Positions 51,260 through 64,000 are shown, counted from the stretch's first letter. The stretch is 64,000 nt of DNA from an uncultured Planctomycetaceae bacterium (GCA_964472875.1 CAYYMD010000005.1:7670-71669); one strand, 5' to 3'. Notes: generated by a model from the letters alone, not told the origin. Translations and numbers: made by a program.

Positions 51260-51904
51260 TTGGTCCGTATGGAAGACATCGCGCGAAAACTGGCCGGCAG
51301 GTTCATCGTCATAGACGGCCCGGACGGTGCGGGCAAGTCCACGCAGATGGAAATGCTCGCCGACCGACTGGAGAAAACCGGCGCGTCACTGGTGCGGACG
51401 CGTGACCCGGGCGGAACCGTCATCGGCGACAAGATACGGGATATTCTGCTGGACGGCAGGCACGATACAATGTCCGTCGAGTGCGAGGTGATGCTTTACA
51501 TGGCCAGCAGGGCGCAACTCGTGGCGGAGGTGATTCGCCCGGCACTTGCCGAGGGCAGGTGCGTGCTGTGCGACAGGTACATCTCCGCGACGGTCGCCTA
51601 TCAGGGCGCCGGCGGGGCCGACATAGACGCCATCCGCCGCGTGGGCGAAATAGCCGTGGGAGGGCTGATGCCGGATTTGACGATAATACTGGACATTCCG
51701 GCCGATGAGGGGCTCTCGCGCCTCGGCGAGTCGCCGGATCGTATGGAGTCCAAGGATGCGGCTTTCCACAGGCGCGTGAGGGAAATGTTCCTCGAACAGG
51801 CCGAACAGATGCCGGAAAGATTCGAAGTAGCCGAGGCAACAGGACCGCCCGAGAGTGTCCACAAAAAAATCCTGGATGCAATATCTGCATACCCTTGGGA
51901 ATGA
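51260..51904 (+). CDS. tmk: dTMP (thymidylate) kinase
   Basis: The P-loop is FIVIDGPDGAGKSTQ, with DRYISATVAYQG downstream. Confidence 0.9.
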   Translation: MVRMEDIARKLAGRFIVIDGPDGAGKSTQMEMLADRLEKTGASLVRTRDPGGTVIGDKIRDILLDGRHDTMSVECEVMLYMASRAQLVAEVIRPALAEGRCVLCDRYISATVAYQGAGGADIDAIRRVGEIAVGGLMPDLTIILDIPADEGLSRLGESPDRMESKDAAFHRRVREMFLEQAEQMPERFEVAEATGPPESVHKKILDAISAYPWE

Positions 51905-51984
51905 ATTTAAAATTTCTTGACAAACGACATTGAAAGGTCGATATTATAAATAGGGATAAGGGAAATTTTGATTGGATAAATTAT

Positions 51985-52033
51985 GGCTTTGTCTTACGCG
52001 TGACATCAATAGCAAGGCAAGGCCTTTTTATTT
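51985..52033 (+). terminator. Hairpin plus U-tract downstream of tmk and upstream of the NYN gene
   Basis: GGCTTTGTCTT (51985-51995) pairs with AAGGCAAGGCC (52014-52024). That gives 11 bp including two G:U pairs. TTTTTATTT follows. Confidence 0.5.
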
Positions 52034-52052
52034 GTAATGGGGATATTTTGAA

Positions 52053-52691
52053 ATGAAAAAGAAAGCAGCCATATTAATTGACGGTGGGTTTGTTTTAAAA
52101 AGACTATACCTTCTTATGGGTAGAACATGTCCTGAGGCCGAAGATGTATATCGATTTGCACATGCATGCTTAGGGGATGATGAAGAAATTTTCCGAATAT
52201 ACTTTTATGATTGCCCTCCTTACGAAGAAAATGCCTGCAATCCACTTGATCCCGAGCACCCGATAAACTTCGCCGAGACGAGTGTAGCAATTCGTAACAG
52301 ACGTCCGCAGCAGCAACTTTCCTTAATGCCGCACGTCGCGTTTCGCAAAGGCGAACTTTTACTGCAAGGGTGGCGATTGTCAGGCAAGTTGCAGAAAGAA
52401 ATTATCAGTAAACACAGACCGATTTGTAAGGATGATCTTTCGCCCGAACTGCGTCAGAAGCGTGTGGATATAAAAATCGGACTGGACGTAGCATGGCTTG
52501 CTTCAAAAAGGATTGTAGACAGGATAATACTGGTAACCGGAGATACGGACTTCATACCGGCGATGAAATTCGCCAGAGGCGAAGGTGCACAGGTAGTGCT
52601 TATAACGATGGGAGTAAAAGTAAAATCTTCGCTCAGGGAAAATACTGATCTGATTAGAAAAGGTTGGCCCCTGCGCGATGATGAAGCGTAG
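52053..52691 (+). CDS. NYN (LabA/PIN-like) domain protein
   Basis: 212 aa. The pattern is AAILIDGGFVLKRL...RQKRVDIKIGLDVAWLA...DRIILVTGDTDFIPAMKFARGEGAQVVLI. It is clearly more AT-rich than flanking tmk and holB. Confidence 0.7.
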   Translation: MKKKAAILIDGGFVLKRLYLLMGRTCPEAEDVYRFAHACLGDDEEIFRIYFYDCPPYEENACNPLDPEHPINFAETSVAIRNRRPQQQLSLMPHVAFRKGELLLQGWRLSGKLQKEIISKHRPICKDDLSPELRQKRVDIKIGLDVAWLASKRIVDRIILVTGDTDFIPAMKFARGEGAQVVLITMGVKVKSSLRENTDLIRKGWPLRDDEA

Positions 52692-52705
52692 GATGGACAG
52701 ATAAA

Positions 52706-60827: not shown

Positions 60828-62039
60828 ATGAATATGAAATTGCAACTGACTGTGTTATTTGTGGCCGCGATGGCGGCCACAGCGGCCCTGCACGCGACGG
60901 AGGATGAGGTGGAAATCCCAACCGAGTCGAAGTGGCAGTTCCCGCGCATCGCGATGTTGTGGTCGGCGGCAGACAATCCCGACACCGGCAAACGACACCG
61001 CCCGAACCAGAAAGGATTCTGGAAAAATGTCGCGAGGCACGATGTGGTGCTTCTGGGCGCGGGCACGCTCGGGCTGGAGTGGACACACGCCAAGTACCAC
61101 GCCATGGTCGAATCTTTCCAAAAGGATTCCATCCCCGCCGCCAGAAGAAATCTCGCCCGCATAAAGGAATTGAATCCGCAGGCCGTCGTCCTGGTGGAGG
61201 TGTACTTCTTCGAAGATGCAAAGGACGCCTACCCTCCCGGGCACCAGTGGTGGCTGCGGGATGAGAAGGGACAAAAGAAGACGTTCTGGCCGGGCACGTG
61301 GCAGTGCGACATCAGCAACGAGGAATATATCTCACACGTGGCGCGGCGGATCGCCGCAGTTCACCGGGCCACCGGCGAGAAGGCCGGCATATTCCTGGAC
61401 AACATCCGCCTCGACAAAAATTCCAGGGCGGCCTGGGAAAAACTGCTCAAGAAAGTGCGAATCGCCTGCGGGGCCGAGATGCCCATACTGGTCAACGCCG
61501 GCTGGAACAGCCACGGCCTGCTGTGGCTGGGAAGGTACGTAAACGGCATCATGTACGAAGATGCAATCAACCACCTTCCCAAAAACGATCCGTCGAAGGA
61601 ATCGTACTACGGCCGTATCGCCGCCCTCGACGCCACGCTCCGCCCGCCGCGCATCAGCGTCAACGAGATATTCGGGTCGCGAGACGATGCGGCCGCGATG
61701 CGGCGGGAACTTATCCGCACGCTTGTCTATACGAATATGTCGTATCTGTATTCCGACTCAACGCAAGGTCACGAGCATCCCTGGTACGACATATGGAGCG
61801 CCCCCTTGGGCGAGGCCGTGGATACGCCGCAGAAGCCCGCACACGGCCGGCTCGCCCGGCGCGACTTCGCCGGCGGGACGGTCCTGTGGCTGCCAAAAAA
61901 CGCCGAGAACCCCGCCACAATCGAGTTCGACTCGCCAATGCTACCTTACGGCAGCGAGAATGAAGTCACAAAAATCACGCTCAAACCAAACCACGGCGAA
62001 ATCCTCCTGAAACCCGAACCAGCCACGAAGCAGAAGTAA
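60828..62039 (+). CDS. Secreted hypothetical protein (possibly a GH114/GHL-type TIM-barrel hydrolase)
   Basis: 403 aa with a signal peptide (LTVLFVAAMAATAALHA). The GIFLDNIRLD and ILVNAG stretches faintly recall TIM-barrel glycosidase-like families. It starts 5 nt after the lpxK stop. Confidence 0.45.
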   Translation: MNMKLQLTVLFVAAMAATAALHATEDEVEIPTESKWQFPRIAMLWSAADNPDTGKRHRPNQKGFWKNVARHDVVLLGAGTLGLEWTHAKYHAMVESFQKDSIPAARRNLARIKELNPQAVVLVEVYFFEDAKDAYPPGHQWWLRDEKGQKKTFWPGTWQCDISNEEYISHVARRIAAVHRATGEKAGIFLDNIRLDKNSRAAWEKLLKKVRIACGAEMPILVNAGWNSHGLLWLGRYVNGIMYEDAINHLPKNDPSKESYYGRIAALDATLRPPRISVNEIFGSRDDAAAMRRELIRTLVYTNMSYLYSDSTQGHEHPWYDIWSAPLGEAVDTPQKPAHGRLARRDFAGGTVLWLPKNAENPATIEFDSPMLPYGSENEVTKITLKPNHGEILLKPEPATKQK

Positions 62040-62047
62040 CCCACGCA

Positions 62048-62254
62048 ATGCCGGCCGAAAAATGCAAATGGTACGAGTGCTGTCCGATAAAGCGTTTCAC
62101 CGACGCCGGGCTGCTGGATGAGAAATGGACGCGGCGGTACTGCCTCGGCGGGCTGTGGAACGAATGCGTTCGCTACAAAATGGAGGAATCACACCGGCCG
62201 CACCCGGACAATATGCTCCCCGACGGTTCGATAGACCGGAACCTGCCGGCTTAA
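62048..62254 (+). CDS. Small conserved Cys-rich protein of unknown function
   Basis: 68 aa: KCKWYECCPIKRFTDAGLLDEKWTRRYCLGGLWNECVRYKMEESHRPHPDNMLPDGS. I recognise this pattern from small proteins of anaerobes and methanogens, but this is from memory only. Confidence 0.55.
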   Translation: MPAEKCKWYECCPIKRFTDAGLLDEKWTRRYCLGGLWNECVRYKMEESHRPHPDNMLPDGSIDRNLPA

Positions 62255-62490
62255 CACCTTAAGAATAATCTGTCATCCGCAGTGACTACATAGTCGCCTT
62301 CGCTTACGGGTTAGGGAACTGGTTGCCCCTCGACCCACAGGCCTTCAATGTGCAGGTCAATGGCTTCATTGATGAATTGCTTCAAAGCTTCGACGCTATT
62401 ACCTCAGTACGCGCAGCCGGGTAGGACGGCAACGTAAGCACAGTAACTGCCATCGGCGCCCCTTCCGATTAATACCAGGTATTTCACCAT
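62251..62490 (-). pseudogene. hicB: HicB-like antitoxin gene interrupted by an in-frame TGA
   Basis: My own translation gives MVKYLVLIGRGADGSYCAYVAVLPGCAY*GNSVEALKQFINEAIDLHIEGLWVEGQPVPNPVSEGDYVVTADDRLFLRC*. The TGA is codon 29 (62404-62406). The HicB N-domain pattern (Y.v.ie..edG.y.a.vpdlPGC...G.t.eEAl....eAi.lhleg....G..iP.P) is clear. Confidence 0.5.
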
Positions 62491-62638
62491 AATCGACCTC
62501 GCCAACGTTTCAGTCTACGCCTGTTTAATGTTCCTTTTGTTTGGCACGTCTATGGTCGGTTTAAGTGGTAGCTCCTAGTAAAGTGCTACGGGTTAAAACC
62601 CGGTACCTGTTTAGCGTGTTAAAATATTTTATTACCGT
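62491..62638 (-). pseudogene. hicA: Decayed HicA-like toxin remnant
   Basis: Pieces appear in two frames: TVIKYFNTLNRYRVLTRSTLL and PTIDVPNKRNIKQA*TETLARSI. They resemble HicA (evIKaLek.Gf..vRq.GSH ... t.VP.H..kdik.GtLrsIlkq). Frameshifts and an in-frame TAG are present. Confidence 0.3.
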
Positions 62639-62943
62639 CCCAAAGGTGTAGGAACGATCTGTATCTTCCGAAGTAACCACATGACGTTGCCTTCCAGCCG
62701 CAGCTTCTTCTTCCAGTAATCATCCCAGGCCTTCTTATTAGTGAATCGCTTGAGGACAATACGAGTCATCTTTGCGGCTCCGGCTCCACACCGGCCGCGG
62801 GCGATGCGCTTGTTGAACGCTTTCTATAGTGAATGTTATAGCATCGGCTGCAGTGCCGCAGGCGTATTTTTGGAAAACATGGCTACAGGGCTGATATCTA
62901 CCAGGATGCTTGCGTATATACGGCCGTCCGTTGAGCAGGTTTT

Positions 62944-63040
62944 CACCGCTTGACGGCCGTGGGGGATTTGCGGAAAATGGCATTCATGCAGGGGTCGCCA
63001 ACATTTGACGACTGGGCGTTGGGGCGGCGGCACGGCCGTA
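62944..63040 (+). repeat. Direct repeat copy 1 (5' part of the IS66-like fragment)
   Basis: ACCGCTTGAC...ATGCAGGGGTCGCCAACATTTGACGACTGGGCGTTGGGGCGGCGGCACGGCCGTATCC recurs at 63901-64000. About 80-85% of positions are identical by eye. Confidence 0.8.
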
Positions 63041-63351
63041 TCCCCGGCCGTCGTGTCCATGTGAACGTCAATCCCGGCGGTACTTCGCATGCGCTCAGCG
63101 TAATCGCGCTGATTGACGATTCTGGTAACGTGGCCGAGCGGATGATCCGTCCTGCGGTGATACTGCGTAAGGTCAGCCAGTCGAACCGGAGCGAGAAAGG
63201 CCCTGCAGTTCAGGCGGTGTTGATGGGCGTGTATCGTACGTTGAATCTCCGCGGCCATGCACCTCTGGCTACGATCACCTCAACCCTGCGAACTTACATG
63301 AGCACCGGCGAACTACCTCCGCTGCCGATAAAATCTGTTGCAGATGGGTAA
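62950..63351 (+). mobile_element. IS66-family transposase C-terminal fragment (truncated)
   Basis: The 133-aa ORF ends DDSGNVAERMIRPAVILRKVSQSNRSEKGPAVQAVLMGVYRTLNLRGHAPLATITSTL. That matches the IS66 C-terminal pattern (DNN.AER.lRp.vi.RK.s.g..Se.G.......l.sv..T.rl.G.nP...l...L). No DDE catalytic core lies upstream. Confidence 0.5.
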
Positions 63352-63407
63352 AGTGTTACAAGAAAATATAGAATAAAACTTAAAACAATGACAGGTTAAT
63401 ATATTAT

Positions 63408-63776
63408 ATGCGAAATATTTATAAATTACGATTATTATGCGATATATTTATAGCCCTATTTTGGTTGTCGTTTTTTATATTTACATTAATAGGTAATATA
63501 ATATTAATTATAGACTTAAATGCGGGTAGGATATTCTTTAATTATTGTATGCATGCGTTATCTGATGATTTGTATATGGCTATATTTTATTATATATATT
63601 TGTTTATTTATGCTATATGGCTATATTCTGGTGGTCTAAATTCAAACCTCTGGAAGTGGTGCCCGCCCTTTGTTATTATTAACAGCGCTTTACCATTTAA
63701 AATATGTCGAATATTATTTGTGTTATTCATAAGTATGTGGTTTCCCATCTTTGCTACGATTGAATTGATAAAATAG
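63408..63776 (+). CDS. Very AT-rich ORF encoding a small polytopic membrane protein (foreign composition)
   Basis: 122 aa, rich in Ile, Phe, Leu and Tyr, with about 4 hydrophobic helices. The first 60 nt contain only 15 G/C, in a window that is mostly GC-rich. It is flanked by the two repeat copies. Confidence 0.45.
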   Translation: MRNIYKLRLLCDIFIALFWLSFFIFTLIGNIILIIDLNAGRIFFNYCMHALSDDLYMAIFYYIYLFIYAIWLYSGGLNSNLWKWCPPFVIINSALPFKICRILFVLFISMWFPIFATIELIK

Positions 63777-63900
63777 GATAGTGTCCTATGATATTTAGAA
63801 GCGCCAGCAACAGGCAAGAAGCAGCGGGTGAAAGTTCCGCCCGGTGAAGGCAGTAGCGACCCACACCGAACATGATTTATTGAATTGCCTTGCTTTAGTA

Positions 63901-64000
63901 AACCGCTTGACTGCCACGGAGGATTAACGGAAAATAACGCTTATGCAGGGGTTGCGAACATTTGACGACTGGGCGTTGGGGCGGTGGCACGGTCGTATCC
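63901..64000 (+). repeat. Direct repeat copy 2 (start of a second IS66-like fragment, runs off the window)
   Basis: It aligns with 62944-63040 and encodes LMQGLRTFDDWALGRWHGRI against MQGSPTFDDWALGRRHGRI in copy 1. Confidence 0.8.

What the first reader, a model, noticed from the sequence alone, without database searches (positions are those of the whole stretch)
62944..64000. AT-rich membrane ORF bracketed by direct repeats of an IS66-like transposase fragment
Seen in sequence:
- A block of about 97 nt starting ACCGCTTGAC (62944) recurs at 63901 and continues to the window end, with a period of 957 bp.
- Each copy opens an ORF with ...MQG..TFDDWALGR.HGRI.
- Copy 1 ends with an IS66-type C-terminal motif (NVAERMIRPAVILRKVS...SEKG...) but lacks any DDE core.
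- Between the copies lies a segment of about 450 bp with drastically different composition (15 G/C in the first 60 nt of the ORF).
- That segment encodes a 122-aa Ile/Phe/Leu/Tyr-rich polytopic protein.

Inference: this is either a tandemly duplicated unit (transposase tail plus AT-rich cargo) or a small foreign gene captured between two copies of a degraded IS. Small hydrophobic proteins of foreign composition next to mobile debris are candidates for immunity, abortive-infection or toxin functions.
Basis: partly seen in the sequence, partly recalled or inferred. Interest (0 to 1): 0.5.

Follow-up and report, generated by a model that had tools for sequence, protein, structure and literature searches.

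The report
Transposon relic beside AT-rich orphan gene
The window ends in a patch of decayed mobile DNA where a 233-bp leftover of an IS66-family insertion sequence, fused to an unrelated 183-bp leader that recurs 957 bp later, abuts a 27 % GC island carrying a 122-codon membrane-protein gene with no known relatives; it is mostly ordinary, and only the orphan gene remains unexplained.

Summary
A 99-nt direct repeat lies at 62945-63043 and 63902-64000 (85 % identity). A 133-aa ORF carries an IS66-type tail. A 27 % GC island contains an intact 122-codon ORF.

The interpretation needs correction. Only 63127-63359 is IS-derived. It is the last 233 bp, including an intact right terminal inverted repeat, of a roughly 1.6-kb single-ORF IS66-family element of the ISBst12 group, common in Phycisphaerae/Planctomycetota MAGs. 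The 99 nt that repeat are not IS sequence. They belong to a 183-bp leader of unknown origin fused to the tail. The same fusion occurs in one other protein, P0002 (71 % identity), so it predates the copies.

The unit has no left inverted repeat, so it is neither a MITE nor a composite transposon. The AT-rich island starts exactly at the IS terminus, so it is flanking DNA, not cargo.

The ORF is almost certainly coding: 0 stops against 5-14 in the other frames, p about 2e-4. It has no homologue among 1.84 billion representative proteins and no Pfam, NCBIfam, PADLOC or PHROG hit.

HicB/HicA pseudogenes and another remnant lie just upstream. Sequence beyond 64000 could not be retrieved. Verdict: a junkyard of mobile DNA plus one orphan gene; low interest.

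The parts
62945..63126 (+). Copy 1 of the 183-bp leader, which is not IS-derived. It contains a promoter-like TTGACG-17-GAAAAT at 62950-62978 and an ATG at 62986 that opens MQGSPTFDDWALGRRHGRI...
   Evidence: The first 99 nt repeat at 63902. There is no DNA similarity to 80 IS copies or to the tail itself. 16 of 20 conserved transposase columns are mismatched. The promoter-like hexamers are conserved in both copies. The only protein-level relative is P0002.
62950..63351 (+). Chimeric 133-aa ORF (P0001): about 59 aa from the leader plus 74 aa of IS66-family transposase C-terminus.
   Evidence: P0002 (128 aa, different contig) has the same architecture at 71 % identity and shares the derived residues RTYMSTG and KVSQ.
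63127..63359 (+). Solo 3' tail (233 bp) of an ISBst12-group IS66-family insertion sequence, ending in the element's right terminus.
   Evidence: blastn against 80 family loci starts at 63126-63133 and ends at 63359, with 81 % identity to the closest locus, L004. tblastn with P0015 covers residues 158-233 only.
63337..63359 (-). Right terminal inverted repeat. Read from the end inwards it is GTAACACTTTACCCATCTGCAAC.
   Evidence: It matches the family TIR consensus GTAACACTTCACCCGTCTGCAAC, derived from full copies flanked by 8-bp target duplications. It is unique in the window.
63360..63795 (.). AT-rich island (26 % GC), beginning at the first base outside the IS terminus.
   Evidence: The right flanks of 63 other copies of this IS average only 3.6 GC points below their locus, with a maximum drop of 14 points.
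63408..63776 (+). 122-aa orphan ORF encoding a predicted 3-4-helix membrane protein.
   Evidence: It has 0 stops, against 5-14 in the other five frames. The 130-codon open frame is matched in only 0.02 % of dinucleotide shuffles. T occupies 50 % of second codon positions. The single-sequence AF2 model is all-helical but low-confidence, pLDDT 59.7. No homologues were found and no family hits.
63777..63901 (.). 125-bp spacer of intermediate GC (48 %), with a 7-bp hairpin directly after the ORF's stop codon.
   Evidence: It has no similarity to anything fetched.
63902..64000 (+). Copy 2 of the leader, with only the first 99 nt visible before the window ends. It has TTGACT-17-GAAAAT at 63907-63935 and an ATG at 63943 that opens MQGLRTFDDWALGRWHGRI.
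   Evidence: The upstream 200 nt are unrelated to those upstream of copy 1.

Best explanation
The last 1.7 kb of the window is a strain-variable patch of decaying mobile DNA.

Shown:
- An ISBst12-group (IS66-family) insertion sequence once sat with its right end at 63359. All but its last 233 bp has been lost.
- The surviving tail is joined at about 63127 to an unrelated 183-bp leader, creating a chimeric 133-aa reading frame.

Inferred:
- The fusion happened once and was then copied. Diverged copies are copy 1, copy 2 (85 % identity) and P0002 on another contig. A further truncated tail of the same lineage is P0117/L084.
- Copying was probably by segmental duplication or recombination rather than transposition, because the unit has only one inverted repeat.
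- The 26 % GC island is the DNA into or next to which the IS inserted. This family shows a mild preference for AT-richer flanks.
- The island carries one complete, horizontally acquired gene for a small polytopic membrane protein with no relatives. The gene is real or was so until recently.
- The ORF's accessory role (for example immunity or exclusion) is a guess only.
For: IS family and its ends:
- 80 loci, mostly Phycisphaerae/Planctomycetota MAGs.
- Full copies of 1.56-1.67 kb, with 23-nt TIRs and 8-bp target duplications.
- A single ORF of about 500 aa.

Chimera:
- Sharp homology boundaries at 63127 and 63359.
- The leader is not IS-like.
- The same fusion occurs in P0002, with shared derived residues. 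Only these two chimeric proteins were found among 5.8 billion.
- P0117/L084 is a further-truncated tail of the same lineage, again abutting AT-rich DNA at the TIR.

Decay context:
- A HicB pseudogene with two in-frame stops lies at 62260-62490.
- Two independent Logan assemblies are 100 % identical up to 62630, and both stop there.

ORF and flank:
- Coding evidence for the ORF.
- Flank GC statistics for other copies of the IS.
Against: - The chimeric ORF is still open in both P0001 and P0002 despite 29 % amino-acid divergence.
- Its tail keeps 38 of 40 family-conserved residues.
- The first 58 coding nt are 93 % identical between copies, against 73 % for the 41 nt upstream. Within those 41 nt the promoter-like hexamers are conserved.
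- Together these hint at function rather than pure decay.
- A 30-point GC drop is far beyond the usual flank of this IS, so 'ordinary target DNA' does not explain the island's origin.
- How a one-ended unit multiplied is not shown.
- Nothing beyond 64000 could be seen.
Confidence: 0.6

Rival explanations
1. Tandem duplication of a roughly 957-bp unit (leader + IS tail + AT-rich gene + spacer). Copy 2 would then be followed by a second tail and a second, diverged AT-rich ORF.
For: The copies are direct, in the same orientation, and share an identical left boundary. Nothing upstream of copy 1 resembles 63360-63901, which fits copy 1 being the first unit. Tail duplications do occur in this IS family, as in L032.
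Against: 85 % identity means any duplication is old. No second chimeric protein matching copy 2 is in the protein database although P0001 is, and the 122-aa ORF has no paralogue there, though it was not called as a gene in the source either. P0002 and P0117 show that the unit also exists at unlinked sites.
Confidence: 0.2
2. A functional two-gene module. A promoter-bearing small protein, built from the transposase C-terminal domain, would act as a transposition inhibitor or regulator. It would be paired with a small membrane protein in a toxin/immunity or exclusion-like cassette.
For: The TTGAC-17-GAAAAT motif is conserved, with an ATG 8 nt downstream, in both copies. The ORF is intact in P0001 and P0002. 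The tail retains family-conserved residues. The AT-rich ORF is clearly coding, with a hairpin after its stop.
Against: 3 of 4 coding differences between the copies are non-synonymous. P0002 has changes at 6 of 40 conserved tail positions, including the AER glutamate and the IRP proline. There are no defence, toxin or phage family hits. The promoter scan is consensus-only, and Planctomycetota promoters are poorly known. Surrounding genes are pseudogenes.
Confidence: 0.12
3. A MITE-like non-autonomous derivative or a composite transposon: two IS-derived units mobilising the AT-rich gene.
For: An intact right TIR. Several diverged copies of the unit exist.
Against: There is no left TIR at or near 62945 or 63902 (11/23 and 8/23 matches by eye; the pattern search finds only the right end). 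The leader is unrelated to IS left ends or to the transposase N-terminus. The units are direct, each with one end only, so the transposase has no pair of ends to act on.
Confidence: 0.04
4. An assembly artefact: a chimeric join or mis-assembled repeat at a contig end.
For: Copy 2 lies at the window edge. Logan contigs break at 62630. The protein of copy 2 is absent from the database, which is consistent with the contig ending in the repeat.
Against: The copies differ at 15 of 99 positions, so this is not a collapsed or duplicated repeat. The AT-rich island is only 435 bp, is bounded on one side exactly by an IS terminus, and returns to host-like GC before copy 2. That is short enough to be spanned by read pairs.
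Confidence: 0.04

Closest known systems
ISBst12 group of the IS66 family (for example ISBst12; ISDge4 in PMC12898284)
   Same: Full-length relatives of the window's tail share these features: a single DDE transposase ORF of about 500 aa (PF03050), 1.56-1.67 kb length, TIRs beginning GTAAC (compare ISDge4, GTAACTGCTCAGCA), and 8-bp target duplications. The window's right TIR fits the family consensus at 21 of 23 positions.
   Different: The window holds only the last 233 bp. It has no catalytic core, no left end and no detectable target duplication. The fragment is fused to an unrelated leader, so it is a relic and not an element.
Solo or partial IS ends and IS-derived chimeric ORFs in degraded genomic islands
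   Same: A one-ended fragment retaining a TIR, surrounded by other pseudogenes (HicAB and another remnant) at a strain-variable boundary.
   Different: The same chimera exists in at least three diverged copies with open frames and a conserved promoter-like motif. That is more persistence than is usual for debris.
Orphan toxin/immunity cassette arrays (Rhs/CDI orphan modules) and integron cassettes, by analogy only
   Same: A conserved repeated 'head' followed by a small gene of foreign, AT-rich composition.
   Different: No toxin domain, attC site, integrase or Rhs/CdiA core is present nearby. Only one full unit is visible, and the conserved head includes an IS tail. No family hits were found.

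Membership tests
IS66 family, ISBst12 group (as an element) | DDE transposase core (PF03050 / NF033517 over most of its length) | tested here: not met
   Only profile positions 331-385 of 387 match (34 bits against a cutoff of 180). The Pfam hit is at E 0.045, below threshold. tblastn with a longer family protein covers residues 158-233 only.
IS66 family, ISBst12 group (as an element) | Terminal inverted repeats starting GTAA at both ends | tested here: not met
   The right TIR is present and intact at 63337-63359. No left TIR occurs anywhere in the window.
IS66 family, ISBst12 group (as an element) | 8-bp target-site duplication | not testable with these tools
   The left end is missing in the window. 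Target duplications were verified only in relatives: GATCGCGC, GAAGCCCT and GGTCAATG.
IS66 family, ISBst12 group (origin of the 233-bp tail) | Sequence homology of the tail and terminus to bona fide full-length elements | tested here: met
   68-81 % nucleotide identity across 63127-63359 to dozens of full copies, ending exactly at their terminus.
MITE / non-autonomous IS derivative | Both TIRs retained and target duplications flanking the short unit | tested here: not met
   One TIR only. The left boundary ACCGCTTGAC does not resemble the TIR.
Composite transposon | Two IS copies, each with functional ends, flanking the cargo | tested here: not met
   Copy 1 is a one-ended relic. The visible part of copy 2 is non-IS leader. 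The AT-rich DNA lies outside the TIR.
Anti-phage defence / abortive infection proteins (PADLOC models) | Profile match of either ORF | tested here: not met
   0 families at E <= 1 for both ORFs. PHROGs gives none for the 122-aa ORF.
Small membrane toxin or immunity protein | Toxicity or protection phenotype, or a cognate partner gene | not testable with these tools
   Only composition and hydropathy are available. There are no homologues.
Protein-coding gene (122-aa ORF) | Open frame longer than composition allows, with frame-specific stop depletion | tested here: met
   0 stops against 5-14 in the other frames. The 130-codon open frame was reached in 0.02 % of 5000 dinucleotide shuffles.

The most novel reading that the evidence does not exclude
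The promoter-bearing leader plus IS-tail unit could be a recurrent 'cassette head'. It would be copied by recombination at the conserved tail or TIR and would sit in front of different small AT-rich cargo genes. The locus would then be the start of a new kind of IS-end-bounded gene-cassette array. The chimeric 121-133-aa protein would be a domesticated transposase C-terminal domain, for example a transposition inhibitor.
Probability: 0.05. Interest if true: 0.6.

Novelty: new member of a known kind. Interest (0 to 1): 0.2.

Why it matters
As it stands it matters little. It documents a decayed ISBst12-group relic and a strain-variable junkyard in a Planctomycetota-like MAG, and it corrects the idea that an IS66 fragment brackets the gene.

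Two modest points of value remain:
1. A clearly coding 122-aa membrane-protein ORF at 26 % GC, with no relative among about 1.8 billion representative proteins, that the source annotation apparently missed.
2. A hint that roughly 230-bp solo right-end tails of this IS family arise repeatedly at nearly the same internal position. If confirmed, that would say something about how these poorly studied single-ORF IS66 elements break or target each other.

Tried and rejected
- **Leader as degraded transposase sequence.** MAFFT (A1) aligned the N-half of the 133-aa ORF collinearly with transposase residues upstream of the tail. I rejected this because there is no DNA similarity (z about 0) and 16 of 20 conserved columns mismatch.
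- **Leader as an older degenerate tail copy** (tandem tails, as in L032) or as the IS 5' end (a MITE). Rejected.
- **Retrieving sequence beyond 64000, or the contig of P0002.** All attempts failed:
  - Exact-protein look-ups for P0001, its ATG variants, P0002 and the 122-aa ORF.
  - A genome-contig scan with P0001.
  - Two metagenome scans.
  - Cluster look-up gave no accessions.
- **Viral contigs.** The one hit to the leader (L083) is antisense to an actinophage FtsK-like gene in GC-rich DNA and is spurious. There was no hit for the 122-aa ORF.
- **Rfam on 62000-64000.** Nothing at E <= 1.
- **Structure.** The single-sequence AF2 model of the 122-aa ORF is too poor (pLDDT 59.7) to justify a fold search, so none was run.
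- **Segments 62631-62944 and 63777-63901.** No similarity to any fetched locus or to the rest of the window. The weak ISH6 hit (E 0.063) is not significant.

Full report
**1. Observation**

The region was read directly and scanned for repeats. A 99-nt direct repeat lies at 62945-63043 and 63902-64000, with 85 % identity and 957-bp spacing. The second copy runs into the window end.

A 27-mer shared by both copies occurs twice in the window, against 0 expected in shuffles. No other copy exists in the 64 kb.

The copies differ at 15 positions: 11 in the first 41 nt and 4 in the following 58 nt. This rules out an assembly duplication artefact. Sequence upstream of the two copies is unrelated.

Both copies contain a promoter-like TTGAC(G/T)-17-GAAAAT motif, followed 8 nt later by an ATG. 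The ATG opens MQG(S/L)(P/R)TFDDWALGR(R/W)HGRI.

Copy 1 continues as a 133-aa ORF at 62950-63351. Downstream, 63360-63800 is 26 % GC against 57 % for the window, and it is the most AT-rich stretch in all 64 kb. It holds a 122-aa ORF at 63408-63776.

**2. The IS-derived part**

The last 75 residues or so of the 133-aa ORF match the extreme C-terminus of IS66-family transposases. The NCBIfam match covers positions 331-385 of 387 at E 1.5e-8. The Pfam PF03050 match is only sub-threshold. A search of 5.8 billion proteins found many PF03050 fragments that are about 80 % identical over that tail only.

A profile-guided scan of species-representative genomes returned 80 loci, almost all from Phycisphaerae/Planctomycetota MAGs. 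Multi-copy loci in a 4.2-Mb contig define the element:

- Length of about 1.64 kb, and 1.56-1.67 kb across the family.
- One ORF of about 500 aa beginning MD.RI...
- 23-nt TIRs with consensus GTAACACTTCACCCGTCTGCAAC.
- 8-bp target duplications: GATCGCGC, GAAGCCCT and GGTCAATG.

This is the architecture of the ISBst12 group of the IS66 family: a single ORF, GTAAC ends and an 8-bp direct repeat. ISDge4 in PMC12898284 is a described example.

In the window, blastn against all 80 loci starts at 63126-63133 and ends at 63359. Identity is 81 % to the closest locus. The last 23 nt form an intact right TIR, which is unique in the window. So exactly 233 bp, 63127-63359, is IS-derived, and the AT-rich DNA begins at the first base outside the terminus.

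**3. The repeated part is not IS sequence**

A MAFFT alignment at first suggested that the N-half of the ORF was a degenerate continuation of the transposase. That does not survive testing.

- The 183-bp leader (62945-63126) has no DNA similarity to any IS copy, to IS left ends, or to the tail itself (with z about 0, 70).
- It mismatches 16 of 20 family-conserved columns, while the tail mismatches 2 of 40.
- The left boundary carries no TIR-like sequence.

The unit is therefore a chimera of an unknown leader and a solo IS right end. It is neither a MITE nor one arm of a composite transposon.

The same fusion is present in P0002 (128 aa, another NCBI contig) at 71 % identity. P0002 shares derived residues with P0001 (RTYMSTG, KVSQ), so the fusion happened once and was then copied. 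A profile search with both sequences found no third chimeric protein among 5.8 billion.

P0117 (locus L084, GCA_964480425.1) is a still shorter tail of the same lineage. Its TIR again abuts a short AT-rich stretch.

The claim that an IS66 fragment brackets the AT-rich gene is thus an extrapolation. What is seen twice in the window is the non-IS leader.

**4. The AT-rich ORF**

The ORF frame has 0 stop codons, while the other five frames of the same 366 nt have 5-14. An open frame of 130 codons was reached in only 0.02 % of 5000 dinucleotide-preserving shuffles of the island. T occupies half of the second codon positions.

Hydropathy shows three to four membrane-spanning segments. A single-sequence AlphaFold model is all-helical but of low confidence, pLDDT 59.7. 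A 7-bp hairpin follows the stop codon.

The ORF fills the island: its start is 48 nt from the IS terminus, and the composition switches about 20 nt after the stop. It is therefore very probably a real, complete gene, now or until recently.

It has no detectable relatives or family assignment:

- No hit in the word-indexed 5.8-billion-protein search, not even to itself, so the source annotation did not call it.
- No hit in an exhaustive phmmer scan of 1.84 billion representatives.
- No tblastn hit in plasmid or phage collections, or in viral contigs.
- No Pfam, NCBIfam, PADLOC or PHROG match.

Right flanks of 63 other copies of this IS average only 3.6 GC points below their locus, with a maximum drop of 14 points. 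The 30-point drop here is not a general property of the family's insertion sites. The island is best read as xenogeneic DNA.

**5. Context**

Immediately upstream lie several remnants:

- A HicB antitoxin pseudogene with two in-frame stops (62260-62490, minus strand; PF15919 at E 7.5e-7) and HicA-like remnants.
- A 314-bp segment (62631-62944) with an unassignable ORF remnant.

Two independent Logan assemblies of SRR15425350 and SRR15425351 are 100 % identical to the window up to 62630, and both end exactly there. That marks a repeat or strain-variable boundary. No tRNA or integrase flanks the region, and Rfam finds nothing.

**6. Mechanism and rivals**

The best-supported reading (confidence about 0.6) runs as follows. 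An ISBst12-group element inserted next to or into an AT-rich foreign gene island. Most of the IS was later lost, and its tail was fused to unrelated DNA. The resulting one-ended chimera was copied a few times by recombination or segmental duplication and is now decaying among other pseudogenes. The 122-aa gene is flank, not cargo.

The rivals are:

- An old tandem duplication of the whole 957-bp unit (about 0.2). This is untestable without sequence past 64000.
- A functional promoter-small-protein/membrane-protein module (about 0.12). It is supported only by the open frames, the conserved promoter-like hexamers and the well-preserved tail. It is weakened by mostly non-synonymous differences between the copies and by substitutions at invariant residues in P0002.
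- A MITE or composite transposon (about 0.04). The missing left TIR refutes this.
- An assembly artefact (about 0.04).

**7. Limits**

Sequence beyond 64000 and the P0002 contig could not be retrieved by any route. P0001 is in the protein database but a copy-2 counterpart is not. This suggests that the contig ends in, or that the frame is broken soon after, the visible 99 nt.

**8. Verdict**

The orphan AT-rich membrane-protein gene is genuine and unexplained, but nothing ties it to a defined system. Interest is 0.2, and I class it as a new member of a known kind.

Noticed in passing
window 62260-62620, minus strand: A HicB-like antitoxin pseudogene with two in-frame stop codons (PF15919, E 7.5e-7). 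Frameshifted HicA-like remnants lie upstream of it on the minus strand. This is a decayed toxin-antitoxin pair directly after the last intact host gene.
   Followed up: partly
window 62630/62631 (L001 and L002 ends): Two independent Logan assemblies (SRR15425350 and SRR15425351) match the window perfectly and both terminate at exactly 62630. This suggests a repeat or strain-variable junction. The following 314 bp (62631-62944) carries a 45-aa minus-strand ORF remnant with only an insignificant ISH6 hit and no similarity to anything fetched.
   Followed up: partly
L032 6239-6468; L015 ~290; L075 ~2000; window 63127: Independent solo tails of this IS family begin within about 15 nt of the same internal motif, GCCGAGCGGATGATCC. 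About 8 of roughly 22 truncated copies break at transposase residues 414-432. In L032 a full IS plus a duplicated 229-bp tail is flanked as a whole by one 8-bp target duplication (GGTCAATG). This points to a possible hot spot for self-insertion or recombination.
   Followed up: partly
protein hits P0014, P0020, P0027, P0039, P0044, P0053, P0087, P0103, P0125: Many unrelated contigs carry a 79-aa protein that in the two sequences read (P0039, P0044) consists of the transposase tail (P0039: VPFDNNLAERMIRP...). The others were seen only as same-length rows in the hit list. They may be solo tails or frameshifted copies called from an internal start, or possibly a natural internal start.
   Followed up: no
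L084 1291-1380 (GCA_964480425.1, CAYZPY010000166.1): A shorter tail of the same RTYMST/ACPAGR lineage ends in the TIR. It is followed at once by about 60 nt of very AT-rich intergenic DNA before the 3' end of an mgtE gene. This is a second case of the lineage abutting AT-rich DNA.
   Followed up: partly
window 63407-63452 and 63573-63627: Short direct repeats lie inside the AT-rich ORF. TATGCGA(A/T)ATATTTATA occurs twice, 29 nt apart, at the start codon. TATATGGCTATATT occurs twice, 41 nt apart. Neither spacing is a multiple of 3. They may be chance in AT-rich DNA, or operator- or iteron-like sites.
   Followed up: no
window 62048-62254, plus strand: A 68-aa Cys-rich ORF (CKWYECCP...C...C) follows the GHL15-like gene. 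It is called in both Logan contigs, has no significant Pfam or NCBIfam match, and is the last apparently intact host gene before the debris.
   Followed up: no
window 51900-52700: The second-lowest GC stretch in the window (34-40 %): an AT-rich intergenic region followed by a 212-aa ORF (52053-52691) of lower GC than its neighbours. It shows no similarity to the island at 63360.
   Followed up: no
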